NCBI RefSeq assembly: GCF_009914755.1
Contig: NC_060933.1
DNA from: the human T2T-CHM13v2.0 reference genome, Homo sapiens
Direction: 5' to 3' (one strand)
Length of the DNA: 64,000 nucleotides
The notes beneath the pieces are model-generated. The model was not told the DNA's origin, did not search any database, and saw only the letters and a list, made by a program, of their open reading frames with translations. The stretch's first letter is position 1. Each line of letters starts with the position of its first letter. Shown here piece by piece: positions 11,901-54,600 of the stretch. The position numbers and the translations under genes are program-made.

Positions 11901-14900
11901 GGAATGCAATGGAATGGAATGCAATGCAATGGAATGGGATCAACCCGAGTGTAATGGAATGGAATCGAAAGGAATGGAATGGAATGGAATGGTTTCAACC
12001 CGAATGGAATGGAAAGGAATGGAATCATCCCGAGTGGAATGGAATGGAATGGAATGGAATGGAATGGAATGGAATGGAATGGAATGAACCCGTGTGCAAT
12101 GGAATGGAATCGAATGGAATGGAATGGAATGGAATGGATTCAAGTCGAATGGAATGGAAAGGAATGGAATCAACCCGAGTGGAATGGCATGGAATGGAAT
12201 GGAATGAAATGGAATGGAATGGAATGGTACGGAATAGAACGGAATGAAACGAAATGGAATGGAATGGAATGGAATGGAAAGGAATGGAATGGAATCAACC
12301 CGAGTGCAGGGGAATGGAATGGAATGGAAGGCAATGGAATGCAATCATCCGGAATTGAATGGAATGGAATGGAATGGAATGGAATCAACTCGATTGCAAT
12401 GGAATGAAATGGAATGGAATGGAATGGAATTAACCCTAATAGAATGGAATGGAATGGAATGGAAGGGAATGGAATGGAATGGAATGGAATGGAATGAAAT
12501 GGAATCAACTCGATTTCAATGGAATGGAATGGAATGCAATGGAATGGAATGGAATGGAATGGAATGAAATTAACCCGAATAGAATGGAATGGAATGGAAT
12601 GGAATGGAATGGAATGGAATGGAATGGAATAGAGTGGAATGGAATGGAATGGAATAGAATGGAATCCACCCGAGTGCAGGGGAATGGAATGGAATGGAAT
12701 GCAATGGAATGGAATCATACGGAATGGAATGGAATGGAATGGAATGGAATCAACCTGATTGCAATGGAATGGAGTGGAATGGAATGGAATGGAATGGAAA
12801 CAACCCGAATGGAATGGAATGGAATGGAGTGTAAGGGAAGTGAATAGAATCAATACGAATGTGATGGAATGGAATGGAACGGAATGGAATGCAATGGAAT
12901 GGAAAGGAATCCAATGGAATGGGTTCAACCCGAGTGCAATGGAATGGAATCGAAAGTAATGGAATGGAATGGAATGGAATGGATTCAACACGAATGGAAT
13001 GGAAAGGAATGGAATCAACCCGAGTGCAGGGGAATGTAATGGAACGGAATGCAATGGAAAGGAATCATCCGGAATGGAATGGAATGGAATGGAATGGAAT
13101 CAACCCGAGTGCAATGGAATGGAGTGGAATGGAATGGAATGGAATGGATCAACCCGAATGGAATGGAATGTAATGTAGAGTAAGGGAGTTGAAAAGAATC
13201 AATCCGAATGTAATGGAATGGAATGGAACGGAATGGAATGGAATGGAATGGAATGGAATGCAATGGAATGGAATCAACCCGAGTACAATGGAATGGAATG
13301 GAATGGAATGGAATGGAACGGAATGGAATGGAATGGAATGCAATGGAATGGAATCTTCCGGAATGGAAAGGAATGGAATGGAATGGAATGGAATGGAATG
13401 CAATGGATTCAACTCGATTCCAATGGAATGGAATAGAATGGAATGGAATGGAATGGAATGGAATTAAACCGAATAGAATGGAACGGAATGGAATGGAACG
13501 GAACGGAATGGAACTGAACGGAACGGAACGGAGTGGAATGGAATGGAATGGAATTGTATGGAATGGAATGGAATGGTACGGAATAGAATGGAATGGAATG
13601 AATTGGAATGGAATGGAATCGAATGGAATGGAATGGAATGGAATGGAATCAACCCGAGTGCAGGGGAATGTAATGGAACGGAATGCAATGGAATGGAATC
13701 ATCCGGAATGGAATGGAATGGAATGGAATGGAATGGAATCAACCCGAGTGCAATGGAATGGAGTGGAATGGAATGGAATGGAATGGAATAGAATCAACTC
13801 GATTGGAATGGAATGGAATGGAATGGAATTAACCCGAATACAATGCAATGGAATGGAATGGAACGGAATGGAGTGGAATGGAATGGAATGAACCCGAGTG
13901 CAGGGGAATGGAATGGAATGGAATGCAATGGAAAGGAATCATCCGGAATGGAATGGAATGGAATGGAATGCAAAGCAATGGAATCAACTCGATTGCAATG
14001 GAATGGAATGGAATGGAAAGGAATACATTGGAATCAACCCGAGTGGAAAGGAATGGAAAGGACTGAAATGGAGTGGAATGGAATGGAATGGAATGGAATG
14101 GAATGGAAAGGAATCAACTTGATTGGAATGAAATGGAATGGAATGGAATGGAATCAACGCGAGTGCAGGGGAATGGAATGGAATGGAATGCAATGGAATG
14201 GAATCTTCCGGAATGGAATGGAATTGAATGGAATGGAATGGAATGGAATGGAATAAACCTGAGGGCAATGGAATGGAGTGGAATGGAATGGAATGGAATG
14301 GAACAACCCGAATGGAATGGAATGTAATGGAGACTAAGGGAGTTGAATAGAATCAATCCGAATGTAATGGAATGGAATGGAACGGAATGGAATTGAATGG
14401 AATGGAATGGGATGCAATGGAATGGAATCAACCCGAGTGCAATCGAATGGAATCGAATAGAATGGAATGCAATGGAATGGATTCAACTTGAATGGAATGG
14501 AAAGAATGGAATCAACACGAGTGGAAGGGCATGGATTGGAATGCAATGGAATGGAATCAACCCGAGTACAGGGGAATGGAATGGAATGGAATGCAATGGA
14601 ATGGAATCATCCGTAATGGAATGGAAAGGAATGGAATGGAATGGAATGGAATGGAATGGAATGGAATGGAATGGAATCAACACGATTGCAATCGAATGGA
14701 ATGGAATGGAATTAACCCGAATAGAATGGAATGGAATGGAATGGAACGGAACGGAATGGAATGGAATGGAATGGAATGGAATGGAACGGAACGGAACGGA
14801 ACGGAACGGAATGGAATGGAATGGAATGGAATGGAATGGAATCGAATCAACGCGAGTGCAGGGGAATGGAATGGAATGGAATGCAATGGAATGGAATCTT

Positions 14901-17099
14901 CCGGAATGGAATGGAATGGAATGGAATGGAATGGAATGGAATTAACCCGAATAGAATGGAATGGAATGGAATGGAACGGAATGGAACGGAATGGAAAGGA
15001 ATGGAATGGAATGGTATGGAATGGAATGGAATGGTACGGAATAGAATGGAATGGAACGAATTGTAATGGAATGGAATTGAATGGAATGGAATGGAATGGA
15101 ATGGAATCAACGCGAGTGCAGGGGAATGTAATGGAACGGAATGCAATGGAATGGAATCATCCGGAATGGAATGGAATGGAATGGAATGGAATGGAATCAA
15201 CCCGAGTGCAATGGAATGGAGTGGAATGGAATGGAATGGAATTGAACAACCCGAATGGAATGGAATGTAATGGAGAGTAAGGGAGTTGAATAGAATCAAT
15301 CCGAAAGTAATGGAATGGAATGCAACGGAATGGAATGGAATGGAATGGAATGGAATGCAATGGAATTGAATCAACCCGAGTACAATGGAATGGAATGGAA
15401 TGGAATGGAAAGGAATGGAATGGAATGGAATGGAATCGTTCCGAGTGGAATAGGAGGGAATGTATTCGAGTGGAATGGAAAGGAAAGGTATCAACCAGAG
15501 TGGAATGGAAGGGAATGGAATGGAATGGAAACTAATAGAATGGAATCAACCCAAGTGGAATGGAATGGAAAGGATTGGAATGGAATGGAATGGAATGGAA
15601 TCAACTCGATTGTAATGGAATGGAATGGAATGGAATGCAATGGAACGGAATTAACCCGAATACAATGGAATGGAATGGAATGGAATGGAATGGAGTGGAA
15701 TGGAATGGAATCAACCCGAGTGCAGGAGAATGGAATGGAATGGAATGCAATGGAATGGAATCATCCGGAATGGAATGGAAAGGAATGGAATGCAAAGCAA
15801 TGGAATCAACTCGATTGCAATGGAATGAAATGGAATGGAAAGGAATACATTGGAATCAACCCGAGTGGAATGGAATGGAAAGGACTGGAATGGAGTGGAA
15901 TGGAATGGAATGGAATGGAATGGAATCAACTCGATTGGAATGGAATGGAATGGAATGGAATGGAATTAACCCGAATAGAATGGAATGGAATGGAATGGAA
16001 CGGAACGGAATGGAATGGAATGGAATGTAATGGAATGGAATGGAATAAACCCGAGTGCAATGGAATGGAGTGGAATGGAATGGAATGGAATGGAACAACC
16101 CGAATGGAATGGAATGTAATGGAGAGTAAGGGAGTTGAATAGAATCAATCCGAATGTAATGGAATGGAATGGAACGGAATGGAATTGAATGGAATGGAAT
16201 GGAATGGAATCAACCCGAGTGCAATGGAATGGAGAGGAATGGAATGGAATGGAATGGAAACTACCCGAATGGAATGGAATGTAATGGAGTGTAACGGAAT
16301 TGAATAGAATCAATCCGAATGTAATGGAATGGAATGGAACGGAATGGAATGGAATGGAATGGAATGGAATGGAATCGAATGGAATGGAATGCAATGGAAT
16401 GGAATCAACCCGAGTGCAATCGAATGGAATCGAATGGAATGGAATGCAATGGAATGGATTCAACTTGAATGGAATGGAAAGAATGGAATCAACACGAGTG
16501 GAATGCCATGGATTGGAATGGAATGGAATGGAATCAACCCGAGTACAGGGGAATGGAATGGAATGGAATGCAATGGAATGGAATCATCCGTAATGGAATG
16601 GAAAGGAATGGAATGGAATGGAATGGAATGGAATGGAATGGAATGGAATCAACTCGATTGCAATCGAATGGAATGGAATGGAATTAACCCGAATAGAATG
16701 GAATGGAATGGAATGGAACGGAACGGAATGGAACGTAACGGAACGGAACGGAACGGAGTGGAATGAGTGGAATGGAATGGAATGGAATTGTATGGAATGG
16801 AATGGCATGGTACGGAATAGAATGGAATGGAAAGAATTGGAATGGAATGGAATCGAATGGAATGGAATGGAATGGAATGGAATCAACCCGAGTGCAATGG
16901 AATGGAGTGGAATGGAATGGAATGGAATGGAACAACCCGAATGGAATGGAATGTAATGGAGAGTAAGGGAGTTAAATAGAATCAATCCGAATGTAATGGA
17001 ATGAAACGGAATGGAATGGAATGGAATGGAATGGAATGGAATGGAATGGAATGGAATGCAATGGAATGGAATCAACCCGAGTACAATGGAACGGAATGG
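8892..17099 (+). repeat. HSat3 inverted block (~8.2 kb), GGAAT on +
   Basis: GGAAT pentamers from ggaatggaa (8892) to ggaacggaatgg (17099). Confidence 0.95.
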
Positions 17100-17596
17100 G
17101 TTTATTCCATTCCATTCCATTCCATTCCGGATGATTCCATTCCATTGCATTCCATTCCATTCCATTCCCCTGCACTCGTGTTGATTCCATTCCCTTCCAT
17201 TCCATTCCATTCAGTTCCATTCCATTCTATTCCGGTTAACTCCATTCCATTTCATTCCATTCCATTCCATTGCAATCGAGTTGATTGCATTCCATTCCTT
17301 TCCATTCCATTCCATTGCCTTGCATTCCACTCGGGTTGATTCCATTCCCTTCTTTCCACTCCATTACATTCCCTTCCATGATTGATTCCATTCCATTCCA
17401 TTCCAGTTCATTCCATTGCAATCCATTCCAATCCATTCCATTCCATTCCATTCCACTCGAGTTGAGTTCATTCCATTCATTTCCATTCCATTCCATTCCT
17501 TTCCACTCGAGTTGATTCCATTCCATTCCAATCCATTGCATTCCATTCCATGCCATTCCACTCGGGTTGATTAATTTCCTTTGCATTCCATTCCAT
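15829..17596 (-). repeat. Right arm of near-identical inverted repeat (partner 1-1763)
   Basis: Reverse complement of 1-1763, including rare motifs (gaaattaatcaa, gaaagaaggg, aacgtaacg, ggaatgccatgg, aggaatacattgg). Confidence 0.92.
17088..17118. other. Inversion junction J1' (GGAAT->CATTC), reverse-complement copy of J1
   Basis: ggaacggaatgg-gtttatt-ccattccattcc; coordinates mirror J1 (position sum 17597). Confidence 0.92.
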
Positions 17597-20500
17597 TCCA
17601 TTCCATTCCATTCCATTCCATTCCATTCTGTTGCATTCCATTCCATTACATTCGGATTGATTCTATTCAACTCCCTTACTCTCCATTACATTCCATTCCA
17701 TTCGGATTGTTCCATTCCATTCCATTCCATTCCAGTCCATTCCATTGCACTCGGGTTGATTCCATTCCATTCCATTCCATTCCATTCCATTCCATTCCGG
17801 ATGATTCCATTCCATTGCATTCCGTTCCATTACATTCCCCTGCACTCGCGTTGATTCCATTCCATTCCATTCCTTTCCATTCAATTCCATTCCATTACAA
17901 TTCGTTCCATTCCATTGTATTCCGTACCATTCCATTCCATTCCATACCATTCCATTCCATTCCATTCCATTCCATTCCATTCCATTCCGTTCCATTCCGT
18001 TGCATTCCATTCAATTCCATTCTATTCGGGTTAATCCCATTCCATTCCATTCCATTCCATTCTATTCCATTCCATTGCAACGGAGTTGAATCCATTGCAT
18101 TTCATTCCATTCCATTCCATTCCATTCCGGAAGATTCCATTCCATTGCATTCCATTCCATGCCATTCCCCTGCACTCGCGTTGATTCCATTCCATTCCAT
18201 TCCATTCCATTCCATTCCATTCAATTCCGTTCCGTTCCGTTCCATTCCATTCCATTCCATTCCATTCCATTCCGTTCCGTTCCATTCCATTCCATTCCAT
18301 TCTATTCGGGTTAATTCCACTCCATTCCATTCGATTGCAATCGTGTTGATTCCATTCCATTCCATTCCATTCCATTCCATTCCATTCCATTCCATTCCTT
18401 TCCATTCCATTACGGATGATTCCATTCCATTGCATTCCATTCCATTCCATTCCCCTGTAATCGGGTTGATTCCATTCCTTTGCATTCCAATCCATGCCCT
18501 TCCACTCGTGTTGATTCCATTCTTTCCATTCCATTCAAGTTGAATCTATTCCATTGCATTCCATTCCATTCGATTCCATTCGATTGCACTCGGGTTGATT
18601 CCATTCCATTGCATTCCATTCCATTCCATTCCATTCCATTCCATTCCATTCCGTTCCATTCCATTCCATTACATTCGGATTGATTCTATTCAATTCCCTT
18701 ACACTCCATTACATTCCATTCCATTCGGGTAGTTTCCATTCCATTCCATTCCATTCCTCTTCATTCCATTGCACTCGGGTTGATTCCATTCCATTGCATT
18801 CCATTCCATTCCATTCCGTTCCATTCCATTCCATTACATTCGGATTGACTCTATTCAACTCCCTTACTCTCCATTACATTCCATTGCATTCGGCTTGTTC
18901 CATTCCATTCCATTCCATTCCACTCCATTCCATTGCACTCAGGTTTATTCCGTTTCATTCCATTCCATTCCATTCCATTCCGGAAGATTCCATTCCATTG
19001 CATTCCATTCCATTCCATTCCCCTGCACTCGCGTTGATTCCATTCCATTCCATTCCATTCCATTCCATTCCATTCCATTCCGATCCGTTCCGTTCCATTC
19101 CATTCCATTCCATTCTATTCGGGTTAATTCCATTCCATTCCATTCGATTGCAATCGAGTTGATTTCATTCCATTCCATTCCATTCCATTCCATTCCTTTT
19201 CATTCAATTACGGATGATTCCATTCCATTGCATTCCATTCCATTCCATTCCCCTGTACTCGGGTTGATTCCATTCCATTCCATTCCATACCATTCCATTC
19301 CAATCCATTCCATTCCATTCCATTCCATTCCGTTCCATTCCATTCCATTCCATTCCATTCCATTCTATTCGGGTTAATCCCATTCCATTCCATTCCATTC
19401 CATTCTATTCCATTCCATTGCAATCGAGTTGCATCCATTGCATTTCATTTCATTCCATTCCATTCCATTCCATTCCGGAAGATTCCATTCCATTGCATTC
19501 CATTCCATTCCATTCCCCTGCAGTCAGGTTGATTCCATTCCATTCCATTCCATTCCATTCCATTCCATTCCATTCCGTTCCGTTCCGTTCCGTTCCATTC
19601 CATTCCATTCCATTCTATTCGGATTAATTCCATTCCATTCCATTCCATTCCATTCCATTCCATTCCATTCCAATCGAGTTGATTCCATTCCATTCCATTC
19701 CATTCCATTCCATTCCTTTCCATTACATTACGGATGACTCCATTCCATTTCATTCCATTCCATTCCATTACCCTGTACTCGGGTTGATTACATTCCATTC
19801 CATTCCAATCCATGCCATTCCAGTCGTGTTGATTCCATTCTTTCCATTCCATTCAAGTTGAATCCATTCCATTGCATTCCATTCCATTCGATTCCATTTG
19901 ATTGCACTCGGGTTGATTCCATGGCATTGCATTCCATTCCATTCCATTCCATTCCATTCCATTCCTTTCCATTCCATTCCATTCGGATTCATTCTATTCA
20001 ATTCCCTTACACTCCATTACATTCCATTCGATTCGTGTAGTTTCCATTCCATTCCATTCCATTCCTCTCCATTCCATTGCACTCGGGTTGATTCCATTCC
20101 ATTCCATTCCATTCCATTCCATTTCATTCCATTCCATTCCATTCCATTCCATCCCGGATGATTCCATTCCATTGAATTCCATTCCATTCCATTCCCCTGC
20201 ACTTGGGTTGATTCCATTCCATTCCATTCCATTCCTTTCTGTTCCATTCCATTCCATTCCATTCCATTCTATTCGTGTTAATTCCATTCCATTCTATTCC
20301 ATTCCATTCCATTGAAATCGAGTTGATTCCATTCCATTCCATTCCATTCCATTCCATTCCGGATGATTCCATTCCATTGCATTCCATTCCATTGCATTCC
20401 CCTGCACTCGGGTTGATTCCATTCCATTCCATTCCATTACATTCCATTCCATTCCGTTCCATTTCATTCTATTCGGGTTAATTCCATTCCATTCCATTCC

Positions 20501-23500
20501 ACTCCATTCCAGTCCTTTCCATTCCATTCCACTCGGGTTGATTCCATTCTATTCCTTTCAATTCCATTCCATTCCATTGCAATCGAGTTGATTCCATTCG
20601 AGTTGAATCCATTCCATTCCATTCCATTCCATTCCATTCCATTGCACACGGGTTCATTCCATTCCATTCCATTCCATTCCATTCCATTCCATTCCATTCC
20701 ATTTCATTCCATTCCATTATATTCCATACCATTCCATTCCATCCCATTCCATTCCGTTCCATTCCATGCCATTACACTCGGGTTGATTCCATTCCTTTCC
20801 ATTCCATTCTTGTTGAATCCATTCCATTCCATTCCATTCCATTCGAATCCATTCCATTGCACTCGGGGTGATTCCATTCCATTCCATTCCATTCCATTTC
20901 ATTCTATTCCATTCCATTACATTCGGATTGATTCTATTCAATTCCCTTACACTCCATTCCATTCCATTCCATTCGGGATGTTTCCATTGCATTCCATTCC
21001 ATTCCACTCCATTCCATTGCATCAGGTTGATTGCATTCCATTCCATTCCATTCCATTCCGGATGATTCCATTCCATTGCATTCCATTCCATTCCATTCCC
21101 CTGCACTCGGGTTGATTCCATTCCATTCCATTCCATTCCATTCCATTCCATTCCATTCCGTTCCAATCCATTCCATTCCATTCTATTCCGGTTAATTCCA
21201 TTCCATTCCATTCGATTCCATTCCATTCCATTCCATTCCCCTGCACTCGCGTTGATTCCATTCTATTCCATTCTATTCCATTCCATTCCCTTCCTTTCCT
21301 TTCCATTCCATTCCATTCCATTCCATTCCATTCCGTTCCGTTCCATTCCATTCCATTCCATTCTATTCGGGTTAATTCCATTCAATTCCATTCGATTGCA
21401 ACCAATTTTTTCCATTCCATTCCATTCCATTCCATTCCATTCCTTTCCATTCCATTACGGATGATTCCATTCCATTGCATTACATTCCAATCCATTCCCC
21501 TGTACTCGGGTTGATTCCATTCCATTCCATTCCAATCCATGCCCTTCAACTCTTGTTGATTCCATTCTTTCCATTCCATTCTAGTTGAATCCATTCCATT
21601 GCATTCCATTGCATTCCATTCCATTCGATTGCACTCGGGTTGATTCCATTCCATTGCATTCCATTCCATTCCATTCCATTCCATTCCATTCCATTCCATT
21701 CCGTTCCATTCCATTCCATTACATTCGGATTGATTCTATTCAACTCCCTTACTCTCCATTATATTCGATTCCATTCGGGTTGTTCCATTCCATTCCATTC
21801 CATTCCACTCCATTCCATTGCAGTCGGGTTGATTCCATTCCATTCCATTCCATTCCGGAAGATTCCATTACATTGCATTCCATTACATTCCATTCCCCTG
21901 CACTCGCGTTGATTCCATTCCTTTCCATTCCATTCCATTCCATTCCATTCCATTCCGTTTCGATCCATTCCATTCCATTCCATTCTATTCGGGTTAATTC
22001 CATTCCATTCCATTCGATTGCAATCGTGTTGATTCCATTCCATTCCATTCCATTCCATTCCATTCCTTTCCATTCCATTACGGATGATTCCATTCCATTG
22101 CATTCCATTCCATTCCATTCCCCTGTACTCGGGTTGATTCCATTCCATTGCATTCCAATCCATGCCCTTCCACTCGTGTTGATTCCATTCACTCCATTCC
22201 ATTCAAGTTGAATCCATTCCATTGCATTCCATTCCATTTGATTCCATTCGATTGCACTCGGGTTGATTCCATTCCATTGCATTCCATTCCATTCCATTCC
22301 ATTCCATTCCATTCCATTCCATTCCGTTCCATTCCATTCCTTTACATTCGGATTGATTCTATTCAATTCCCTTACACTCCATTACATTCCATTCCATTCG
22401 GGTAGGTTCCATTCCATTCCATTCAATTCCTCTCCATTCCATTGCACTCGGGTTGATTCCATTCCATTGCATTCCATTCCATTACATTCAATTACATTCC
22501 GTTCCATTCCATTCCATTACATTCGGATTGATTCTATTCAACTCCCTTACTCTCCATTACATTCCATTCCATTCGGGTTGTTCCATTCCATTCCATTCCA
22601 TTCCACTCCATTTCATTGCACTCGGGTTTATTCCATTCCATTCCATTCCATTCCATTCCATTCCATTCCATTCCATTCCGGAAGATTCCATTCCATTGCA
22701 TTCCATTCCATTCCATTCCCCTGCACTCGCGTTGATTCCATTCCATTCCATTCCATTCCATTCCATTCCATTCCATTCCTTTCCGTTCCATTCCATTCCA
22801 TTCCATTCCATTCCATTCCGTTCCGTTCCGTTCCGTTCCGTTCCATTCCATTCCACTCCATTCTATTCGGGTTAATTCCATTCCATTCCATTCGATTGCA
22901 ATCGAGTTGATTCCATTCCATTCCATTCCATTCCATTCTATTCCATTCCATTCCATTCCTTTCCATTCCATTACGGATGATTCGATTCCATTGCATTCCA
23001 TTCCATTCCATTCCCCTGTACTCGGGTTGATTCCATTCCATTCCATTCCATTCCATTCTATTCCATTCCATTCCGTTCCATTCCGGAAGTTTCCATTCCA
23101 TTGCATTCCATTCCATTCCATTCCCCTGCACTCGCGTTGATTCCATTCCATTCCATTCCATTCCATTCCATTCCATTCCATTCCGATCCGTTCCATTCCA
23201 TTCCATTCCTTTCCATTCCGTTCCGTTCCATTCCATTCCATTCCATTCCATTCTATTCGGGTTAATTCCATTCCATTCCACTCGATTGCAATCGAGTTGA
23301 TTCCATTCCATTCCATTCCATTTCATTGCATTCCATTCCTTTCCATTCCATTCCTTTCCATTCCATTACGGATGATTCTATTCCATTGCATTCCATTCCA
23401 TTCCATTCCCCTGTACTCGGGTTCATTCCATTCCATTCCATTCCAATCCATGCCATTCCACTCGTGTTGATTCCATTCTTTCCATTCCATTCAAGTTGAA

Positions 23501-41420: not shown

Positions 41421-43489
41421 TTCCATTCCACTCCATTCCATTGCACTCGGGTTGATTCCATTCAATTCCATTCCATTCCTTTCCGGATGATTCCATTCCA
41501 TTGCATTCCGTTCCATTACGTTCCCCTGCACTCGGGTTGATTCCATTCCATTCCTTTCCATTCCATTCGAATCCATTCCATTCCCCTGCACTCGCGTTGA
41601 TTCCATTCCATTCCATTCCATTCCTTTCCGTTCCATTCCATTCCACTCCATTCCATTCCGTTCCGTTCCATTCCATTCCATTCCATTCTATTCGGGTTAA
41701 TTCCATTCCATTCCATTCGATTGCAAACGACTTGATTCCATTCCATTCCATTCCATTCCATTCCATTCCATTCCTTTCCATTCCTTTCCATTCCATTACT
41801 GATGATTCCATTCCATTGCATTCCATTCCATTCCATTCCCCGGTACTCGGGTTGATTCCATTCCATTCCATTCCAATCCATGCCATTCCACTCGTGTTGA
41901 TTCCATTCTTTCCTTTCCATTCAAGTTGAATCCATTCCATTGTATTCCATTCCATTTGATTCCATTCGATTGCACTCGGGTTGATTCCATTCCATTGCAT
42001 TCCATTCCATTCCATTCCATTCCATTCCATTCCCTTCCATTCCACTCTGGTTGATTCCATTCCTTTCCATTCCACTCGAATACATTCCCTCCTATTCCAC
42101 TCGGAACGATTCCATTCCATTCCATTCCATTCCATTCCATTCCATTCCATTCCATTCCATTCCATTTCGTTCCATTCCATTCTATTCCGTATCATTCCAT
42201 TCCATTCCATTCCATTCCATTCCATTCCATTCCATTCCATTCCATTGTACTCGGGTTGATTCCATTATATTGCATTCCATTCCATTCCATTCCATTCCAT
42301 TCCACTCCGTTGCATTCCATTCCATTACATGCGGATTGATTCTATTCAACTCCCTTACTCTCCATTACATTCCATTCCTTTGGGGTTGTTCCATTCCATT
42401 CCATTCCATTCCACTCCATTCCATTGCACTCGGGTTGATTCCATTCCATTCCATTCCATTCCATTCCATTCCATTCCATTCCATTCCATTCCGGATGATT
42501 CCATTCCACTGCAATCTGTTCCATTAAATTCCCCTGCACTCGCGTTGATTCCATTCCATTCCATTCCATTCCATTCAATTCCATTCCATTACAATTCGTT
42601 CCATTCCATTCTATTCCGTACCATTCCATTCCATTCCATACCATTCCATTCCATTCCGTTCCATTCCATTCCGTTACATTCCGTTCCATTCCATTCCATT
42701 CCATTCTATTCGGATTAATTCCATTCCATTCCATTCCATTCCATTGCAATCGAGTTGAATCCATTGCATTTCATTCCATTCCATTCCATTCCATTCCATT
42801 CCATTCCATTCCATTCCGTTCCATTCCATTCCTTTACATTCGGATTGATTCTATTCAATTCCCTTACACTCCATTACATTCAATTCCATTCGGGTAGTTT
42901 CCATTCCATTCCATTCCATTCCATTCCTCTCCATTCCATTGCACTCGGGTTGATTCCATTCCATTGCATTCCATTCCATTCCATTCAATTCCATTCCGTT
43001 CCATTCCATTCCATTACATTCGGATTGATTCTATTCAACTCCCTTACTCTCCGTTACATTCCATTCCATTCGGGTTGTTCCATTCCATTCCATTCCATTC
43101 CACTCCATTCCATTGCACTCGGGTTGATTCCATTCCATTCCATTCCATTCCATTCCATTCCATTCCATTCCATTCCGGAAGATTCCATTCCAATGCATTC
43201 CATTCCATTCCATTCCCCTGCACTCGCGTTGATTCCATTCCATTCCATTACATTCCATTCCGTTCCGTTCCATTCCATTCTATTCCATTCCATTCCATTC
43301 CGTTCCGTTCCATTCCATTCCATTCCATTCTATTCGGGTTAATTCCATTCCATTCCATTCGATTGTCATCGAGTTGATTCCATTCCATTCCATTCCATTC
43401 CATTCCATTCCATTCCTTTCCATTCCATTACGGATGACTCCATTCCATTGCTTTCCATTCCATTCCATTCCCCTGTACTCGGGTTTATT

Positions 43490-46400
43490 CCATTCCATTC
43501 CATTCCACTCCATTCGGTTCCGTTGCATTCCATTCTATTGCATTCCATTCTATTCGGGTTAATTCCATTCCATTCTATTCCATTCCATTCCATTCCATTC
43601 CATTGCAATGGAGTTTATTCCATTCCATTCCATTCCATTCCGGATGATTCAATTACATTGCATTCCATTGCATTCCATTCCCCTGCACTCGTGTTGATTC
43701 CATTCCCTTCCATTCCATTCCATTCCGTTCCATTCCATTCCATTCCATTCTATTCCGGTTAATTCCATTCCATTCCATTCCATTCCATTCCATTCCATTC
43801 CATTGCAATCGAGTTGATTCCATTCCATTCCTTTCCATTCCATTCCATTGCCTTGCATTCCACTCGGGTTGATTCCATTCCCTTCTTTCCACTCCATTAC
43901 ATTCCCTTCCATTCCACTCGGAATGATTGATTCCATTCCATTCCATTCCATTTCATTCCATTGCAATCCATTCCAATCCATTCCATTCCATTCCATTCCA
44001 CTCGAGTTGACTTCATTCCATTCCTTTCCATTCCATTCCATTCCTTTCCACTCGAGTTGATTCCATTCCATTCCAATCCATTGCAATCCTTTCCATGCCA
44101 TTCCACTCGGGTTGATTCCATTCCTTTGCATTCCATTCCATTCCATTCCATTGCATTCCATTCCATTCCATTCCGTTGCATTCCATTCCATTACATTCGG
44201 ATTGATTCTATTCAACTCCCTTACTCTCCATTACATTCCATTCCATTCGGGTTGTTCCATTCCATTCCATTCCATTCGACTCCATTCCATTGCACTCGGG
44301 TTGATTCCATTCCATTCCATTCCATTCCATTCCATTCCGGATGATTCCAATCCATTGCATTCCGTTCCATTACATTCCCCTGCACTCGGGTTGATACCAT
44401 TCCATTCCATTCCATTCCATTCCATTCCATTCCATTCCATTCCATTCCATTCTATTCTGGTTAATTCCATTCCATTCCTTTCGATTCCATTCCATTCCAT
44501 TCCATTCCATTCCATTGCAATCGAGTTGATTCCATTCCATTCCATTCCATTCCGTTCCGGATGATTCCATTCCATTCCATTCCATTCCCCTGCAGTTGGG
44601 TTGATTCCATTCCATTCCATTCCATTCCATTCCATTCCATTCCATTCCATTCCATTCCATTCCGTTCCATTCCATTCCATTCCATTCTATTCGGGTTAAT
44701 TCCATTCCATTCCATTCCATTCCATTCCAATCGAGTTGATTCCATTCCATTCCATTCCATTCCATTCCACTCCATTCCAGTCCTTTCCATTCCATTACAC
44801 TCGGGTTGATTCCATTCTATTCCTTTCCATTCCATTCCATTCCATTGCAATCGAGTTGATTCCATTGCTTTGCATTCCATTCCATTCCATTCCATTCCGG
44901 ATGATTCCATTCCATTGCATTCCTTTCCATTCCATTCCCTTGCACTCGGGTTGATTCCATTCCATTCCACTCCATTCCGTTCCATTCCATTTCATTCCGT
45001 TCCATTGTATTCGGGTTAATTCCATTCCATTCCATTCCATTCCATTCCATTCCATTCCATTCCAATCGAGTTGATTCCATTCCATTCCATTCCATTCCAT
45101 TCCATTCCATTCCATTCCAGTCCTTTCCATTCCATTCCACTCGGGTTGATTCCATTCTATTCATTTCCATTCCATTCCATTCCATTGCAATCGACTTGAT
45201 TCCATTGTTTTGCATTCCATTCCTTTCCATTCCATTCCGGATGATTCCATTCCATTGCATTCCGTTAAATTACATTCCCCTGCACTCGGGTTGATACCAT
45301 TCCATTCCATTCCATTCCATTCCATTCCGGATGATTCCATTCCATTGCATTCCATTCCATTCCATTCCCCTGCACTCGGGTTGATTACATTCCATTTCCT
45401 TCCTTCCATTCCTTTCCATTCCATTCCATTCCATTCTATTCGGGTGAATTCCATTCCATTCCATTCCATTCCATTCCATTCCATTCCATTCCGTTCCGTT
45501 CCATTCCAGTCCATTCCATTCTATTAGGGTTAATTCCTTTCCATTCCATTCGATTGCAATCGTGTTGATTCCATTCCATTCCATTCCGTTCCATTCCATT
45601 CCATTCCATTCCTTTCCATTCCATTACGGATGATTCCATTCCATTGCATTCCATTCCATACCATTCCCCTGTACTCGGGTTGATTCCATTCCATTGCATT
45701 CCAATCCATGCCCTTGCACTCGTGTTGATTCCATTCTTTCCATTCCATTCAAGTTGAATCCATTCCATTGCATTCCATTCCATTCGATTCCATTCGATTG
45801 CACTCGGGTTGATTCCATTCCATTGCATTCCATTCCATTCCATTCCATTCCATTCCATTCCATTCCAATCCATTCCGTTCCATTCCATTCCATTACATTC
45901 GGATTGATTCTATTCAATTCCCTTACACTCCATTACATTCCATTCCATTCAGGTAGTTTCCATTCCATTCCATTCCATTCCTCTCCATTCCATTGCACTC
46001 GGGTTGATTCCATTCCATTGCATTCCATTCCATTCCATTCAATTCCATTCCGTTCCATTCCATTCCATTACATTCGGATTGATTCTATTCAACTCCCTTA
46101 CTCTCCATTACATTCCATTCCATTCGGGTTGTTCCATTCCATTCCATTCCATTCCACTCCATTCCATTGCACTCGGGTTGATTCCATTCCATTCCATTCC
46201 ATTCCATTCCATTCCATTCCATTCCGGAAAATTCCATTCCATTGCATTCCATTCCATTCCATTCCCCTGCACTCGCGTTGATTCCATTCCATTCCATTCC
46301 ATTCCATTCCATTCCATTCCTTTCCGTTCCATTCCATTCCATTCCATTCCATTCCACTCGTGTTTATTCCATTCCTTTCCATTCCATTCGGTTTGAAAGC

Positions 46401-48690: not shown

Positions 48691-51600
48691 CATTCCATTC
48701 CATTCCATTCAATTCCATTCCATTACAATTCGTTCCATTCCATTCTATTCCGTACCATTCCATTCCATTCCATACCATTCCATTCCATTCCATTCCATTC
48801 CGTTCCATTCCGTTCCATTCCATTCCATTCCATTCTATTCTGGTTTATTCCATTCCATTCCATTCCATTCCATTCTATTCCATTCCATTGCAATCGAGTT
48901 GAATCCGTTGCATTTCATTCCATTCCATTCCATTCCATTCCATTCCGGAAGATTCCATTCCATTGCATTCCATTCCATTCCATTCCCCTGCACTCGCGTT
49001 GATTCCATTCCATTCCATTCCATTCCATTCCATTCCATTCCATTCCGTTCCATTCCGTTCCATTCCGTTCCATTCCATTCCATTCCATTCCATTCCGTTC
49101 CGTTCCGTTCCATTCCATTCCATTCCATTCTATTCGGGTTAATTCCATTCCATTCCATTCGATTGCAATCGTGTTGATTCCATTCCATTCCATTCCATTC
49201 CATTGCATTCCATTCCATTCCTTTCCATTCCATTACGGATGATTCCATTCCATTGCATTCCATTCCATTCCATTCCCCTGTACTCGGGTTGATTCCATTC
49301 CATTGCATTCCAATCCATGCCCTTCCACTCGTGTTGATTCCATTCTTTCCATTCCATTCAAGTTGAATCCATTCCATTGCATTCCATTCCATTCGATTCC
49401 ATTCGGTTGCACTCGGGTTGATTCCATTCCATTGCATTCCATTCCATTCCATTCCATTCCATTCCATTCCATTCCATTCCGTTCCTTTCCATTCCATTAC
49501 ATTCGGATTGATTCTATTCAATTCCCTTACACTCCATTACATTCCATTCCATTCGGGTAGTTTCCATTCCATTCCTCTCCATTCCATTGCACTCGGGTTG
49601 ATTCCATTCCATTGCATTCCATTCCATTCCATTCAATTGCATTCCGTTCCATTCCATTCCATTACATTCGGATTGATTCTATTCAACTCCCTTAGTCTCC
49701 ATTACATTCCATTCCATTCGGGTTGTTCCATTCCATTCCATTCCATTCCACTCCATTCCATTACACTCGGGTTTATTCCATTCCATTCCATTCAATTCCA
49801 TTCCATTCCGGAAGATTCCATTCCATAGCATTCCATTCCATTCCATTCCCCTGAACTCGCGTTGATTCCATTCCATTCCATTCCATTCCATTCCATTCCA
49901 TTCTATTCCTTTCCATTCCAGTCTTTTCCATTCCATTCCACTCGGGTTGATTCCATTCTATTAGTTTCCATTCCATTCCATTCCCTTCCATTCCACTCTG
50001 GTTGATTCCATTCCTTTCCATTCCACTCGAATACATTCCCTCCTATTCCACTCGGAACGATTCCATTCCATTCCATTCCATTCCATTCCATTCCATTCCA
50101 TTTCGTTCCATTCCATTCTATTCCGTATCGTTCCATTCCATTCCATTCCATTCCATTCCATTCCATTCCACTCGTGTTGATTCCATTCCTTTCCATTCCA
50201 TTCGGTTTGAAGGCATTCCATTCCATTCCATTCCATTCCATTCCATTGTACTCCGGTTGATTCCATTCCATTGCATTCCATTCCATTCCATTCCATTCCG
50301 TTGCATTCCATTCCATTACTTTCGGATTGATTCTATTAAACTCCCTTACTCTCCATTACATTCCATTCCATTTGGGTTGTTCCATTCCATTCCATTCCAT
50401 TCCACTCCATTCCATTGCACTCGGGTTGATTCCATTCCATTCCATTCCATTCCATTCCATTCCATTCCGGATGATTCCATTCCATTGCATTCCGTTCCAT
50501 TACATTCCCCTGCACTCGCGTTGATTCCATTCCATTCCATTCCATTCCATTCAATTCCATTCCATTACAATTCGTTCCATTCCATTCTATTCCGTACCAT
50601 TCCATTCCATTCCATACCATTCCATTCCATTCCATTCCATTCCATTCCGTTCCATTCCGTTCCATTCCATTCCATTCCATTCTATTCGGGTCCATTCCAT
50701 TCCATTCCATTCCATTCCATTCCATTCTATTCCATTCCATTGCAGTCGAGTTGAATCAATTGCATTTCATTCCATTCCATTCCATTCCATTCCATTCCAT
50801 TCCCGAAGATTCCATTCCATTGCATTCTTTTCCATTCCATTCCCCTGCACTCGCGTTGATTCCATTCCATTCCATTCCATTCCATTCCATTCCATTCCAT
50901 CCATTCCGTTCCGTTCCGTTCCATTCCATTCCATTCCATTCCATTCCATTCCATTCCATTCCGTTCCATTCCATTCCATTCCATTATATTCGGGTTAATT
51001 CCATTCCATTCCATTCGATTGCAATCGAGTTGATTCCATTCCATTCCATTCCATTCCATTCCATTCCATTCCATTCCATTCCATTCCTTTCCATTCCATT
51101 ACGGATGATTCCATTCCATTGCATTCCATTCCATTCCATTCCCCTGTACTCGGGTTGATCCATTCCATTCCATTCCAATCCATGCCATTCCACTCGTGTT
51201 GATTCCATTCTTTCCATTCCATTCAAGTTGAATCCATTCCATTGCATTCCATTCCATTCCATTCATCTGCAGTCGGGTTGATTCAATTCCATTCCATTCC
51301 ATTCCATTCCATTCCATTCCGTTCCGTTCCATTCCATTCCATTCCTCTCTATTCGGGTTAATGCCATTCCATTCCATTCGATTGCAATCGAGTTGATTCC
51401 TTTCCATTGCATTCCATTCCATTCCATTCCTTTCCATTCCATTACGGATGGTTCCTTTCCATTGCATTCCATTCCATTCCATTCCACTGTACTCGGCTTG
51501 ATTGCATTCCATTCTATTCCAATCTATGCCATTCCACTCGTGTTGATTCCATTCTTTGCATTCCATTGAAGTTGAATCCATTCCATTGCATTCCATTCCA

Positions 51601-54600
51601 TTCGATTCCATTCGATTGCACTCGGATTGATTCCATTCCATTGCATTCCATTCCATTCCATTCCATTCCATTCGGATTGATTCTATTCAATTCCCTTACA
51701 CTCCAATACATTCCATTCCATTCGGGTAGTTTCCATTCCATTCCATTCCATTCCTCTCCATTCCATTGAACTCGGGTTGATTCCATTCCATTCCATTCCA
51801 TTCCATTCCATTCCATTACATTACATTCCATTCCATTCCGTTCCATTGTACTCGGGTTGATTCCATTCCATTGCATTCCATTCCATTCCATTCCATTCCA
51901 TTCCATTCCATTCCGTTCCATTCCATTCCATTAAATTCGGATTGATTCTTTTCAACTCCCTTACTCTCCATTACATTCCATTACATTCGTGTTGTTCCAT
52001 TCCATTCCATTCCATTCCACTCCATTCCATTGCACTCGGGTTGATTCCATTCCATTCCATTCCATTCCGGATGATTCCATTCCATTGCATTCCGTTCCAT
52101 TACATTCCCCTGCACTCGGGTTGATTCCATTCCATTCCATTCCATTCCATTCGATTCCATTCCATTCCTCTGCACTCGCGTTGATTCCATTCCATTCCAT
52201 TCCATTCCATTCCATTCCATTCCATTCCTTTCCATTCCAGTCCTTTCCATTCCATTCCACTCGGGTTGATTCCATTCTATCAGTTTCCATTCCATTCCAT
52301 TCGCTTCCATTCCACTCTGGTTGATTCCATTCCTTTCCATTCCACTCGAATACATTCCCTCCTATTCCACTCGGAACGATTCCATTCCATTGCATTCCAT
52401 TCCATTCCATTCCATTTCGTCGCATTCCATTCTATTCCGTATCATTCCATTCCATTCCATTCCATTCCATTCCATTCCATTCCATTCCATTCCACTCGTG
52501 TTGATTCCATTCCTTTCCATTCCATTCGGTTTAAAGGCATTCCATTCCATTCCATTCCATTCCATTCCATTCCATTCCATTCTATTCGGGTTAATTCCAT
52601 TCCATTCCATTCGATTGCAATCGAGTTGATTCCATTCCATTCCATTCCATTCCATTCCATTCCTTTCCATTCCATTACGGATGATTCCATTCCATTGCAT
52701 TCCATTCCATTCCATTCCCCTGTACTCGGGTTGATTCCATTCCATTCCATTCCAATCCATGCCATTCCACTCGTGTTGATTCCATTCTTTCCATTCCATT
52801 CAAGTTGAATCCATTCCATTGCATTCCATTCCATTCCATTCCCCTGCAGTCTGGTTGATTCTATTCCATTCCATTCCATTCCATTCCATTCCATTCCGTT
52901 CCGTTCCGTTCCATTCCATTCCATTCCATTCTATTCGGGTTAATTCCATTCCATTCCATTCCATTCCATTCCATTCCATTCCAATCGAGTTGATTCCATT
53001 CCATTCCATTTCATTCCATTCCACTCCATTCCAGTCCTTTCCATTCCATTCCACTCGGGTTGATTCCAATGTATTCCTTTCCATTCCATTCCATTCCATT
53101 GAAATCCAGTTGATTCCATTGCTTTGCATTCCATTCCATTCCATTCCATTCCGGATGACTCCATTCCATTGCATTCCATTCCATTGCATTCCCCTGCACT
53201 CGGGTTGATTCCATTCCATTCCACTCCATTCCGTTGCATTCCATTCCATTCCATTGTATTCGGGTTAATTCCATTCCATTCCATTCCATTCCATTCCATT
53301 CCATTCCATTCCATTACAATCGAGTTGATTCCATTCCATTCCATTCCATTCCAGTCCTTTCCATTCCATTCCACTCGGGTTGATTACATTCTATTAGCTT
53401 CCATTCCATTCCGTTCCCTTCCATTCCACTCTGGTTGATTCCATTCCATTCCATTCCACTCGAATACATTCCCTCCTATTCCACTCGGAACGATTCCATT
53501 CCATTCCATTCCATTCCATTCCATTCCATTCCATTCCATTCCATTCCATTTCGTTCCATTACATTCTATTCCGTATCATTCCATTCCATTCCATTCCATT
53601 CCATTCCATTCCATTCCACTCGTGTTGATTCCATTCCTTTCCATTCCATTCGCTTTGAAGGCATTCCATTCCATTCCATTCCATTCCATTCCATTCCATT
53701 CCATTGTACTCGGGTTGATTCCATTCCATTGCATTCCATCCCATTCCATTCCATTCCAATCCGTTGCATTCCATTCCATTACATTCGGATTGATTCTATT
53801 CAACTCCCTTACTCTCCATTACATTCCATTCCATTCGGGTTGTTCCATTCCATTCCATTCCATTCCACTCCATTCCATTGCACTCGGGTTGATTCCATTC
53901 CTTTCCATTCCATTCCATTCCATTCCGGATGATTCCATTCCATTGCATTCCGTTCCATTACATTCCCCTGCACTCGCGTTGATTCCATTCCATTCCATTC
54001 CATTCCATTCCATTCAATTCCATTCCATTAGAATTCGTTCAATTCCATTCTATTCCGTACCATTCCATTCCATTCCATACCATTCCATTCTATTCCATTC
54101 CATTCCATTCCATTCCATTTCGTTCCATTCCGTTCCATTCCATTCCATTCCATTCTATTCGGGTTAATTCCATTCCATTCCATTCCATTCCATTCCATTC
54201 CATTCCATTCCATTCCAATCTATTCCATTCCATTGCAATCGAGTTGAATCCATTGCATTTCATTCCATTCCATTCCATTCCATTCCATTGCAATCGAGTT
54301 GAATCCATTGCATTTCATTCCATTCCATTCCATTCCATTCCATTCCGGAAGATTCCATTCCATTGCATTCCATTCCATTCCATTCCCCTGCACTCGCGTT
54401 GATTCCATTCCATTCCATTCCATTCCATTCCATTCCGTTCCGTTCCGTTCCATTTCATTCCATTCCATTCCATTCCATTCCGTTCCATTCCATTCCATTC
54501 CATTCCATTCTATTCGGGTTAATTCCATTCCATTCCATTCGATTGCAATCGAGTTGATTCCATTCCATTCCATTCCATTCCATTCCATTCCAATCGAGTT

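What the first reader, a model, noticed from the sequence alone, without database searches (positions are those of the whole stretch)
13350..54356. A satellite variant encodes ~28 perfect heat-shock elements, confined to one ~41-kb sub-domain
Seen: the recurrent motif aTTCcgGAAgaTTCc is an exact three-unit inverted nGAAn array. By eye it occurs at 13350, 14200, 14893 (reverse orientation) and at 18124, 18977, 19472, 21852, 22675, 25208, 26076, 27793, 29297, 29647, 30017, 34126, 35600, 36598, 39334, 39638, 41191, 43172, 48942, 49805 and 54342. Spacer-only variants that keep the consensus lie at 23080 and 31000 (GAAgtTTC), 46221 (GAAaaTTC) and 50799 (TTCccGAA). Core-broken copies are at ~28003 and ~38291. 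I found none in 1-13300 or 55300-64000, where only the one-mismatch sister TTCcgGATgaTTC occurs. Established: HSF1 trimers bind nTTCnnGAAnnTTCn, and HSF1 binds satellite III (mainly 9q12) to nucleate nuclear stress bodies, yet the plain GGAAT repeat gives only direct, not inverted, nGAAn units. Inference: a single T>A change turns a satellite motif into a high-affinity HSE about every 1.5 kb, set in 10-bp-phased TTC tracts. This could give a punctate internal HSF1 promoter grid, with HSE-rich and HSE-free domains alternating within the macro-unit.
Basis: partly seen in the sequence, partly recalled or inferred. Interest (0 to 1): 0.8.

Follow-up and report, generated by a model that had tools for sequence, protein, structure and literature searches.

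The report
Heat-shock sites in chromosome 9 satellite
One spelling variant of the large chromosome 9 satellite repeat forms a textbook binding site for the heat-shock factor HSF1, which fits the known gathering of HSF1 at this locus under stress and refines published work rather than revealing a new phenomenon.

Summary
The window holds 28 perfect three-unit heat-shock elements (24 exact TTCCGGAAGATTC) between 13351 and 54355 and none outside. Shuffles predict 1.8.

All copies are one allele of a ~58-bp chr9 HSat3 block. A single base (GAA vs GAT) separates it from the commoner 'sister' allele, and it is tightly linked to downstream variants. This points to one origin followed by amplification.

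Every inverted nGAAn pair in 264 kb comes from this allele.

Genome-wide there are 12,968 exact copies, none clustered on chr1-8. They are present across chr9 from 50 to 74 Mb at about 0.4-0.5 per kb.

HSat3 samples from chr15, chr14 and chr22 gave 1 site in 46.5 kb. The Y-chromosome DYZ1 repeat carries three unrelated elements per unit.

The two HSE-free flanks are copies of one ~14-kb segment. There is no regular 53.5-kb grid.

HSF1 binding to this exact site was not testable here. HSF1 motifs confined to HSat3 sub-regions, with matching ChIP-seq, are already in a 2024 preprint.

Verdict: a real feature of a known phenomenon, with useful sequence-level detail. Interest is moderate.

The parts
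13351..54355 (.). HSE-bearing domain: 28 three-unit HSEs interleaved with 37 copies of the GAT 'sister' allele
Evidence: Sister copies inside the domain: 13696, 13936, 15154, 15758 (- strand); 17125, 17795, 20357, 21056, 23835, 24614, 27185, 28773, 28998, 32649, 33448, 34861, 37393, 37982, 38985, 40323, 40852, 41481, 42489, 43638, 44335, 44555, 44895, 45235, 45325, 46671, 47721, 47931, 48623, 50465, 52065, 53923 (+ strand). The 37th copy, at 54758, lies just past the last HSE.
13351..13363 (-). HSE, exact (GAATCTTCCGGAA on + strand)
14201..14213 (-). HSE, exact
14894..14906 (-). HSE, exact
18125..18137 (+). HSE, exact TTCCGGAAGATTC
18125..18182 (+). Example of the ~58-bp block: HSE 13-mer plus 45 bp ending in the linked ...CCCCTGCACTCGCGTT
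   Evidence: The HSE allele is linked to A at +29 (100/100), C at +37 (99/100) and not-G at +54 (97/100).
18978..18990 (+). HSE, exact
19473..19485 (+). HSE, exact
21853..21865 (+). HSE, exact
22676..22688 (+). HSE, exact
23081..23093 (+). HSE, spacer variant TTCCGGAAGTTTC
25209..25221 (+). HSE, exact
26077..26089 (+). HSE, exact
27794..27806 (+). HSE, exact
28003..28017 (+). Core-broken copy ATTGCGGAAGATTCC (first TTC lost)
29298..29310 (+). HSE, exact
29648..29660 (+). HSE, exact
30018..30030 (+). HSE, exact
31001..31013 (+). HSE, spacer variant TTCCGGAAGTTTC
34127..34139 (+). HSE, exact
35601..35613 (+). HSE, exact
36599..36611 (+). HSE, exact
38291..38305 (+). Core-broken copy ATTCGGGAAGATGCC (last TTC lost)
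39335..39347 (+). HSE, exact
39639..39651 (+). HSE, exact
41192..41204 (+). HSE, exact
43173..43185 (+). HSE, exact
46222..46234 (+). HSE, spacer variant TTCCGGAAAATTC
48943..48955 (+). HSE, exact
49806..49818 (+). HSE, exact
50800..50812 (+). HSE, spacer variant TTCCCGAAGATTC (CpG lost)
54343..54355 (+). HSE, exact
1..13350 (.). HSE-free segment, copy 1. It holds two strand flips and 5 sister copies.
   Evidence: Paralogous to 53.5-67.5 kb.
54356..64000 (.). HSE-free segment, copy 2. The gap runs on to 66,877 in window-continued coordinates.
   Evidence: 95.3% identity to copy 1 over 10,008 columns.
8892..17073 (-). Inverted (GGAAT-on-plus) segment of the array. It carries the three reverse-oriented HSEs.
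   Evidence: Other runs: GGAAT 3-494, ATTCC 525-8883, ATTCC 17104-62424, GGAAT 62433-63991.

Best explanation
The 28 sites are copies of one allele of a ~58-bp block of the chr9 HSat3 array. The literature calls this array subfamily B5.

In this block a single inverted pentamer (GGAAG) sits between ATTCC units. This gives aTTCc-gGAAg-aTTCc, a canonical binding site for one HSF1 trimer. The commoner allele reads GGATG and has no perfect inverted pair at all.

The GAA allele arose once, most likely by T>A on a GAT background. It was then spread by the unequal exchange and segmental duplication that build the array. It now has roughly 13,000 copies at about 0.4-0.5 per kb across the ~28-Mb array.

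I infer that these sites are the main high-affinity docking points for HSF1 trimers at 9q12 after heat shock. On this reading, it is the sheer number of sites in one compact chromatin block that makes 9q12 a primary nucleation site of nuclear stress bodies and of SatIII transcription. HSE-poor HSat3 arrays are engaged only weakly or secondarily.

Shown here: the sequence, the allele structure, the copy number and the contrast between arrays. Inferred: site-level HSF1 occupancy, affinity and any promoter role.
For: - 28 matches against 1.79 expected by shuffling.
- HSE and sister occupy the same position of the same block.
- The HSE allele is linked to +29 A in 100/100, +37 C in 99/100 and +54 not-G in 97/100 copies. 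For sister copies the figures are 102/192, 100/192 and 62/192.
- In 264 kb there are 111 HSEs. 222 of 230 two-unit inverted pairs lie inside them, and the other 8 are decayed copies.
- Genome-wide the exact 13-mer occurs 12,968 times against a control of 117. Only 13 isolated hits fall on C1-C8.
- The 15-mer ATTCCGGAAGATTCC occurs 12,700 times, none before C9:49.16 Mb. That is 90.7% of all 14,004 ATTCCNGAANATTCC sites.
- 8 of 10 two-kb samples across chr9 50-76.5 Mb carry an HSE (10 sites, 8 exact).
- Other HSat3 arrays: chr15 0 in 25 kb, chr14 0 in 8.6 kb, chr22 1 in 12.9 kb. At the chr9 density 19.5 would be expected (P about 7e-8).
- The other known primary stress-body locus, Yq12/DYZ1, also carries perfect HSEs, of unrelated sequence, at 0.75 per kb.
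- Literature (passages read):
  - HSF1 binds 9q12 SatIII directly (PMC2173303).
  - 'Putative HSEs' at 9q12 are reported as an unpublished observation (PMC9032817).
  - The HSP70 HSE probe printed in PMC2173303 contains the same GGAAT|ATTCC pentamers.
Against: - No binding data for this exact sequence could be examined.
- PMC2173303 reports that recombinant HSF1 shifts the 158-bp 9q12 clone pHuR98. The authors say its NGAAN organisation differs from a canonical HSE. HSF1 can therefore bind SatIII without this motif, though more protein was needed (>12.5 ng vs >3 ng).
- PMC9032817 notes HSF1 foci on other pericentromeres under HSF1 overexpression or severe stress. Perfect HSEs are thus not strictly required.
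- There is no sign of constraint. My hand tally of the table covers 95 HSE-related copies on the linked haplotype. 85 keep the consensus. Core changes number 12 of 855 site-copies and spacer changes 11 of 380. The copies are not independent and the spacer holds a CpG.
- Other neutral-looking variants of the same block (+29, +37, +54) reach similar frequencies, so drift and amplification alone explain the abundance.
- HSE and sister labels are not significantly segregated (P=0.083).
- The per-chromosome split of the 12,968 copies beyond chr9 could not be listed. Sampled densities of 0.28-0.5 per kb times 27.6 Mb give about 7,700-13,800.
Confidence: 0.7

Rival explanations
1. Neutral by-product. 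The GAA allele is just one of many block variants amplified by satellite turnover. HSF1 is drawn to 9q12 by other features, such as dense direct nGAAn arrays, unusual DNA structure or chromatin state. The perfect HSE match contributes little.
For: - pHuR98 is described as lacking canonical HSE organisation, yet HSF1 still shifts it in vitro. The authors propose that HSF1 recognises secondary structure.
- There is no detectable constraint on core versus spacer positions.
- Linked non-HSE variants reach comparable frequency.
- HSF1 can reach other pericentromeres.
Against: - Direct GGAAT arrays are just as dense in the chr15, chr14 and chr22 HSat3 samples, yet those samples lack HSEs. The literature names 9q12 and Yq12 as the primary sites.
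- The two primary loci are exactly the two arrays found here to carry perfect HSEs at 0.4-0.75 per kb.
- ChIP-seq follows motif density within arrays.
Confidence: 0.2
2. The HSEs form a regular promoter grid, and HSE-rich and HSE-free domains alternate periodically within a ~53.5-kb macro-unit. Each HSE drives its own SatIII transcription unit.
For: - HSE-free gaps are larger than uniform placement allows. The largest gap is 31 kb, matched in 0 of 5000 simulations, and the 4th largest has P=0.0024.
- SatIII RNAs are reported as 2-5 kb and longer, the same order as the HSE spacing (median 1.5 kb, mean 2.3 kb over 264 kb).
Against: - The 53.5-kb offset links only window 0-14 kb with 53.5-67.5 kb. 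The next 200 kb show irregular gaps of 8.2, 9.1, 11.6 and 31.0 kb.
- Spacing is irregular (IQR 843-2403 bp) and not phase-locked.
- No TSS data were available.
- An HSE is orientation-independent, so it cannot by itself explain the G-rich strand bias of SatIII RNA.
Confidence: 0.12
3. The T>A change matters for another factor. CCGGAAG is the core of ETS-family sites (recalled knowledge, not from a call), so the allele may act as an ETS site, possibly methylation-sensitive, rather than or as well as an HSE.
For: The HSE allele contains CCGGAAGA and the sister contains CCGGATGA. The preprint screen found many TF motifs in HSat3.
Against: [quoted passage not shown] No ETS binding at 9q12 was found in the passages read. 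The base after GGAAG is A, which I recall as suboptimal.
Confidence: 0.05

Closest known systems
HSF1 motif sub-regions of HSat3 arrays (bioRxiv 10.1101/2024.10.22.616524; passages read; figures and supplements not seen)
   Same: Same genome assembly and same satellite. The preprint states that HSF1 motifs are enriched in sub-regions of HSat3 arrays and that HSF1 ChIP-seq from heat-shocked MCF7 cells is enriched where motif density is high.
   Different: The passages read give no motif spelling, allele relationship, copy number or kb-scale anatomy. They do not contrast chr9 with chr15. HSF1 serves there only as a positive control.
Perfect HSEs of the Y-chromosome SatIII unit DYZ1 (PMC7889540; passages read)
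   Same: Canonical HSEs are interspersed in SatIII at a primary stress-body locus, with HSF1 ChIP nearby. My samples show 3 three-unit HSEs per ~3.55-kb unit.
   Different: The DYZ1 sequences are unrelated (GAACTTTCTTGAA, GAATGTTCTGGAA, GAAGGTTCTCGAA). They sit at fixed positions of a regular 3.55-kb unit, almost all in one orientation (forward/reverse 4360/259, 5015/515, 4785/152). The chr9 sites are one 13-mer, irregularly spaced, on both strands (6383/6585).
Proximal HSE of the HSP70 promoter (probe sequence printed in PMC2173303)
   Same: Inverted nGAAn pentamers in 5-bp register. The same GGAAT|ATTCC pentamers occur in both.
   Different: The promoter HSE lies upstream of a defined TSS. 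The satellite site is an isolated three-unit element flanked by direct ATTCC units, with about 13,000 copies and no mapped TSS.
pHuR98 / D9Z3 9q12 SatIII clone bound by HSF1 in vitro (PMC2173303)
   Same: Same locus and same factor.
   Different: The authors describe NGAAN elements there as not organised like a canonical HSE. The allele described here is canonical.

Membership tests
Canonical heat-shock element (HSF1 trimer site) | At least three contiguous nGAAn units in alternating orientation, in 5-bp register | tested here: met
   28 of 28 sites match TTCnnGAAnnTTC or its complement. The fourth unit on either side is a direct ATTCC, so each site has exactly three units.
Canonical heat-shock element (HSF1 trimer site) | Occupied by HSF1 in vivo on heat shock | not testable with these tools
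   Only regional evidence from the literature: HSF1 at 9q12, and ChIP-seq following motif density in HSat3. No reads were available here.
Canonical heat-shock element (HSF1 trimer site) | Higher affinity than one-mismatch variants (GAA vs GAT) | not testable with these tools
   In sequence terms, the sister allele leaves zero perfect inverted pairs. No binding measurement was made.
Heat-inducible promoter element | Heat-induced transcription start within a short distance of the HSE | not testable with these tools
   No 5'-end data. The only annotation is the predicted lncRNA LOC124906798, with exons at 11972-11991 and 15413-15461 (hub table).
HSat3 subfamily B5 (chr9 array) | Lies in the large chr9 pericentromeric HSat3 array | tested here: met
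   The window is C9:60202001-60266000. GGAAT/ATTCC density is about 110 per kb. The chr9 array is named HSat3B5, 27.6 Mb, in 10.1101/2021.07.12.452052.
HSat3 subfamily B5 (chr9 array) | Carries the subfamily-specific k-mers of the published classification | not tested
   The subfamily k-mer sets were not available.
HSat3 subfamily B5 (chr9 array) | Frequent strand inversions | tested here: met
   Four flips in 64 kb. The literature reports over 200 breakpoints in the array.

The most novel reading that the evidence does not exclude
Primary stress-body nucleation is set by the dosage of perfect HSEs that arose independently in two satellites. In chr9 HSat3 a one-base GAT>GAA switch in a ~58-bp block was amplified to about 13,000-14,000 sites. 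In DYZ1 three unrelated sites per 3.55-kb unit give about 13,200 sites.

Together these would make up roughly 36% of the 76,189 perfect three-unit HSE matches in this genome. The two arrays would then be the cell's dominant HSF1 sink. Normal size variation of the 9q12 and Yq12 blocks would change how much HSF1 is left for chaperone genes.

The independent origin of HSEs in both primary loci, and their near absence from the chr15, chr14 and chr22 HSat3 samples, would then reflect selection rather than chance.
Probability: 0.3. Interest if true: 0.65.

Novelty: already known. Interest (0 to 1): 0.4.

Why it matters
Since 2002 the field has known that HSF1 binds 9q12 SatIII. It has also noted that the cloned repeat lacks a canonical HSE layout. 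Later texts speak of 'HSE-like sequences scattered' or 'putative HSEs ... unpublished observation'.

This window, together with the genome counts, gives a concrete spelling and an allele pair:
- The spelling is ATTCCGGAAGATTCC, with 12,700 copies.
- A natural one-base control allele, the GAT 13-mer, has 21,931 copies.
- Other HSat3 arrays show a clear contrast, with almost no HSEs.

The old question 'why 9q12 and Yq12?' thus becomes directly testable with existing ChIP-seq reads and simple oligo assays.

This is a refinement of a known system, not a new one. The preprint already shows that HSF1 motif density within HSat3 predicts ChIP signal.

Tried and rejected
I used smaller samples instead. 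The chr9 share of the 12,968 copies is therefore an estimate, not a count.
3. A regular 53.5-kb macro-unit is rejected. The offset joins only ~14 kb of the window to its copy, and the next 200 kb have no such period.
4. I tested whether the left arm (1-9 kb) is an inverted copy of the right arm (8.5-18 kb), which would give paired GAA/GAT paralogues. The best alignment is 83.6% against 79-80% for off-register alignments. That is too weak to use.
5. The test for purifying selection on core versus spacer positions among haplotype-matched copies was inconclusive (and my hand tally).
6. The test that HSE copies are clustered relative to sister copies was not significant: 130 runs against 141.6 +/- 8.0 expected, P=0.083; longest sister run P=0.157.
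7. String searches of the paper library for the four 13-mers found 2 papers, both unrelated: a Cas12a coding sequence and a zebrafish study. An earlier search with 12-mers gave 138 papers, of which I saw 20 listed. None of those was on SatIII, and most hits were one primer.
8. I read passages of PMC11622622, PMC13634412 and PMC2241877 looking for HSE definitions in SatIII. None was given.

Full report
**1. The observation**

A direct scan of the window finds 25 matches to TTCnnGAAnnTTC and 3 to GAAnnTTCnnGAA. The DNA search gives the same 28.
- The expectation from 100 dinucleotide-preserving shuffles is 1.79 (sd 1.47, max 7), and 0 of 100 shuffles reach 28.
- 24 of the 28 are the exact 13-mer TTCCGGAAGATTC or its complement.
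- The other four differ only in spacer bases: 23081 and 31001 (GT), 46222 (AA), 50800 (CC).
So are the two core-broken copies at 28003 and 38291.
- No match lies in 1-13350 or 54356-64000.
- The three reverse-oriented copies lie in a segment where the satellite itself is inverted. Runs of GGAAT on the + strand cover 3-494, 8892-17073 and 62433-63991. Runs of ATTCC cover 525-8883 and 17104-62424.

**2. What the motif is part of**

I oriented and aligned all 74 CCGG-type sites. The HSE and the 'sister' TTCCGGATGATTC occupy the same position of a longer conserved block: TTCCGGA[A/T]GATTC followed by 45 bp ending in CCCCTGCACTCG[C/G]GTT.

I extended the sequence by the next 200 kb of the chromosome. 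The resulting 264 kb holds 111 three-unit HSEs (100 exact) and 192 sister copies.

The HSE allele sits on one haplotype of the block:

| Linked position | HSE copies | Sister copies |
|---|---|---|
| +29 is A | 100 of 100 | 102 of 192 |
| +37 is C | 99 of 100 | 100 of 192 |
| +54 is not G | 97 of 100 | 62 of 192 |

(All.) The many HSEs are therefore one mutational event that was amplified, not repeated independent changes.

Of 230 two-unit inverted nGAAn pairs in the 264 kb, 222 lie inside the 111 HSEs. The remaining 8 are decayed copies of the same block. The GAA allele is thus the only source of inverted pairs in this satellite. The GAT allele leaves none, because its central unit is the damaged one.

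**3. Domain structure**

A 40-mer offset analysis shows a ~53.5-kb repeat distance. That distance joins only window 0-14 kb with 53.5-67.5 kb. blastn aligns 528-10400 with 54060-63951 at 95.3% identity over 10,008 columns. The two HSE-free flanks are therefore two copies of one segment.

In the 264 kb the HSE-free gaps are 13.35 (cut by the window start), 12.5, 11.6, 9.1, 8.2 and 31.0 kb. There is no regular period.
- Against uniform placement, the largest gap is never reached in 5000 simulations, and the fourth largest has P=0.0024.
- Along the ordered list of 303 block copies, however, HSE and sister labels are not significantly segregated. There are 130 runs against 141.6 +/- 8.0 expected, P=0.083.
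- The HSE-free stretches are mostly stretches where the whole block family is sparse. For example, bins 190-210 kb hold 0 HSE and 2 sister copies among 25 anchor blocks.
- Spacing is irregular: median 1.5 kb, IQR 0.84-2.4 kb, with 17 of 110 spacings divisible by 5.

**4. Genome-wide picture**

All of the following are pattern counts over the whole assembly. The tool warns that such counts are lower bounds.

| Pattern | Forward | Reverse | Total | Control (reversed pattern) |
|---|---|---|---|---|
| TTCCGGAAGATTC (exact 13-mer) | 6383 | 6585 | 12,968 | 117 |
| TTCCGGATGATTC (sister) | 11,000 | 10,931 | 21,931 | 45 |
| ATTCCGGAAGATTCC (15-mer with ATTCC flanks) | 6240 | 6460 | 12,700 | 3 |
| ATTCCNGAANATTCC (one inverted pentamer in an ATTCC array) | 6859 | 7145 | 14,004 | 100 |
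| TTCNNGAANNTTC (any three-unit match) | 31,067 | 45,122 | 76,189 | 43,994 |

- Only 13 isolated hits of the exact 13-mer fall on contigs 1-8. Dense hits begin at C9:49.29 Mb.
- The 15-mer has no hit before C9:49,162,019. It accounts for 90.7% of all ATTCCNGAANATTCC sites.
- Ten 2-kb samples spaced 3 Mb apart along chr9 (50-76.5 Mb) gave 10 HSEs (8 exact), and 8 of the 10 samples were positive.
- Sampled densities of 0.28-0.5 per kb, times the 27.6 Mb given for this array, make 7,700-13,800 copies. Most of the 12,968 copies, and probably nearly all, are therefore on chr9. I could not list the split by chromosome beyond chr9.
- At the proximal edge of the array, the sister listing shows 86 copies between C9:48.79 and 49.163 Mb. 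The HSE listing shows one copy (49,162,020) before 49,287,719. A sister-only domain thus exists at the 100-kb scale. This and the sister's greater haplotype diversity suggest that GAT is the older allele. That is an inference, with no outgroup.

**5. Other arrays**

| Array (how located) | HSat3-like sequence sampled | Three-unit HSEs |
|---|---|---|
| chr9, contiguous 264 kb | 264 kb | 111 (0.42 per kb) |
| chr9, array-wide samples | 20 kb | 10 (0.50 per kb) |
| chr15 (probing at 6-13 Mb) | 25 kb | 0, and 0 two-unit pairs in the 21 kb checked |
| chr14 | 8.6 kb | 0 |
| chr22 | 12.9 kb | 1, of different sequence |
| C24, taken to be chrY | 8 kb | 6 (0.75 per kb) |

- The chr15, chr14 and chr22 samples together gave 1 HSE in 46.5 kb, against 19.5 expected at the chr9 density (P about 7e-8). 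In making this tally, 27 probe loci that were not HSat3-like were set aside.
- On C24, two of three 4-kb samples were GGAAT-rich. Each carried three HSEs of unrelated spelling.
- Genome-wide forward/reverse counts for those three spellings are 5015/515, 4360/259 and 4785/152. One of them recurs every ~3.55 kb from C24:27.9 Mb.
- Forward minus reverse sums to about 13,200. This matches the 14,055 strand excess in the generic count.
- Scaling the exact chr9 count by the ratio 111/100 seen in the 264 kb, the chr9 and DYZ1 satellites together hold roughly 27,600 of the 76,189 perfect three-unit matches. That is about 36%.

**6. Literature (what I read)**

- bioRxiv 10.1101/2024.10.22.616524 (outline, abstract and passages). 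[quoted passage not shown] The figure and supplements were not visible to me.
- PMC9032817 (passages). Putative HSEs at 9q12 are an unpublished observation of the authors. Other pericentromeres are engaged under HSF1 overexpression or severe stress. SatIII RNAs are 2-5 kb and longer.
- PMC7889540 (passages). There are four perfect HSEs in a 3564-bp DYZ1 unit, with HSF1 ChIP nearby. The authors speculate that Yq12 may carry more HSEs than 9q12.
- PMC2173303 (passages). HSF1 binds 9q12 directly and shifts pHuR98 at higher protein amounts than an HSP70 HSE. The authors say the NGAAN organisation there differs from a canonical HSE.
- PMC10505914 (passages). [quoted passage not shown]
- 10.1101/2021.07.12.452052 (passages). 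The chr9 array is HSat3B5, 27.6 Mb, with over 200 inversion breakpoints.
- Full-text searches for the four 13-mers found no SatIII or HSF1 paper.

**7. How it most likely works**

Shown:
- A canonical three-unit HSE exists at about 0.4-0.5 per kb through the chr9 array.
- It is created by one base in one block allele.
- It is the only inverted-pair source in the array.
- It is almost absent from the other HSat3 arrays sampled.

Established (literature):
- HSF1 trimers bind inverted nGAAn triplets.
- HSF1 binds 9q12 and Yq12 first.
- ChIP-seq follows motif density.

Inferred:
- These ~13,000 sites per chr9 copy are the high-affinity docking points that concentrate HSF1 at 9q12.
- Their number in one compact chromatin block gives the focus its primacy.
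- GAT copies and plain repeats contribute only weak binding.

Whether each site acts as a promoter is open. The HSE cannot by itself explain the G-rich strand bias of SatIII RNA.

**8. Novelty and verdict**

The phenomenon and the sub-regional motif/ChIP relationship are already known. Four things appear not to be in print, as far as the searches reach:
- the exact spelling of the site;
- the GAA/GAT allele pair on a shared block;
- the single-origin haplotype;
- the copy numbers and the chr15/14/22 contrast.

These make a long-standing question cheaply testable. Interest is moderate (0.4).

**9. Limits**

- No binding, methylation or transcription data were available.
- Whole-genome counts come from a tool that warns they are lower bounds.
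- Samples outside chr9 are small.
- Copies in a satellite are not independent, so all P values are indicative only.

Noticed in passing
window 495-525, 8883-8892, 17073-17104, 62424-62433: There are four strand flips of the satellite in 64 kb. The junctions at 8.9 kb and 62.4 kb are 53,541 bp apart and belong to the duplicated ~14-kb segment. Frequent inversions in this array are already reported (over 200 breakpoints).
   Followed up: partly
window 11972-11991 and 15413-15461 (+): The two in-window exons of the predicted lncRNA LOC124906798 (hub table) lie in the GGAAT-on-plus segment 8892-17073. The model is therefore G-rich-strand, like known SatIII RNA. The three reverse-oriented HSEs (13351, 14201, 14894) fall in its intron.
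   Followed up: no
G000:C9:48,790,686-49,163,140 (listings): The proximal edge of the chr9 array has 86 listed copies of the GAT allele, locally about one per 200-1000 bp. Only one GAA copy occurs before 49,287,719. This is a sister-only domain at the 100-kb scale.
   Followed up: partly
L022, L023 (G000:C24:45.0 and 55.0 Mb); listing from C24:27,909,121: The DYZ1-like 3.55-kb repeat carries three perfect HSEs per unit (GAACTTTCTTGAA, GAATGTTCTGGAA, GAAGGTTCTCGAA). Each has about 4,100-4,600 copies, almost all on one strand. They account for the 14,055 strand excess of generic HSE matches. PMC7889540 reports four per unit, so its criterion may differ.
   Followed up: partly
genome-wide: GAATGTTCTGGAA also has about 500 dispersed copies per strand on the autosomes, far above its control (31 and 41). 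It probably lies in an interspersed repeat family. A small cluster sits at C1:127.75-128.64 Mb.
   Followed up: no
L084 (G000:C22:8,000,301-8,004,300), position 1895: This is the single three-unit HSE found outside chr9 and chrY, in an HSat3-like array on chr22. Its spelling, GAATATTCTCGAA, is different. I do not know whether it recurs in that array.
   Followed up: no
L025 position 338, L026 position 1566 (G000:C9:53.0 and 56.0 Mb): These HSE copies have the central CpG decayed to CA or TG (GAATCTTCCAGAA, GAATCTTCCTGAA). They still fit the HSE consensus. The pattern is consistent with methylation-driven decay of the CCGG in the spacer.
   Followed up: no
window + L001-L020, offsets: Strong shared-40-mer offsets at about 1.5, 3.5, 5.0-5.5 and 9.0 kb in the 264 kb suggest nested tandem repeats of a few kb in parts of the region. 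They were not mapped.
   Followed up: no
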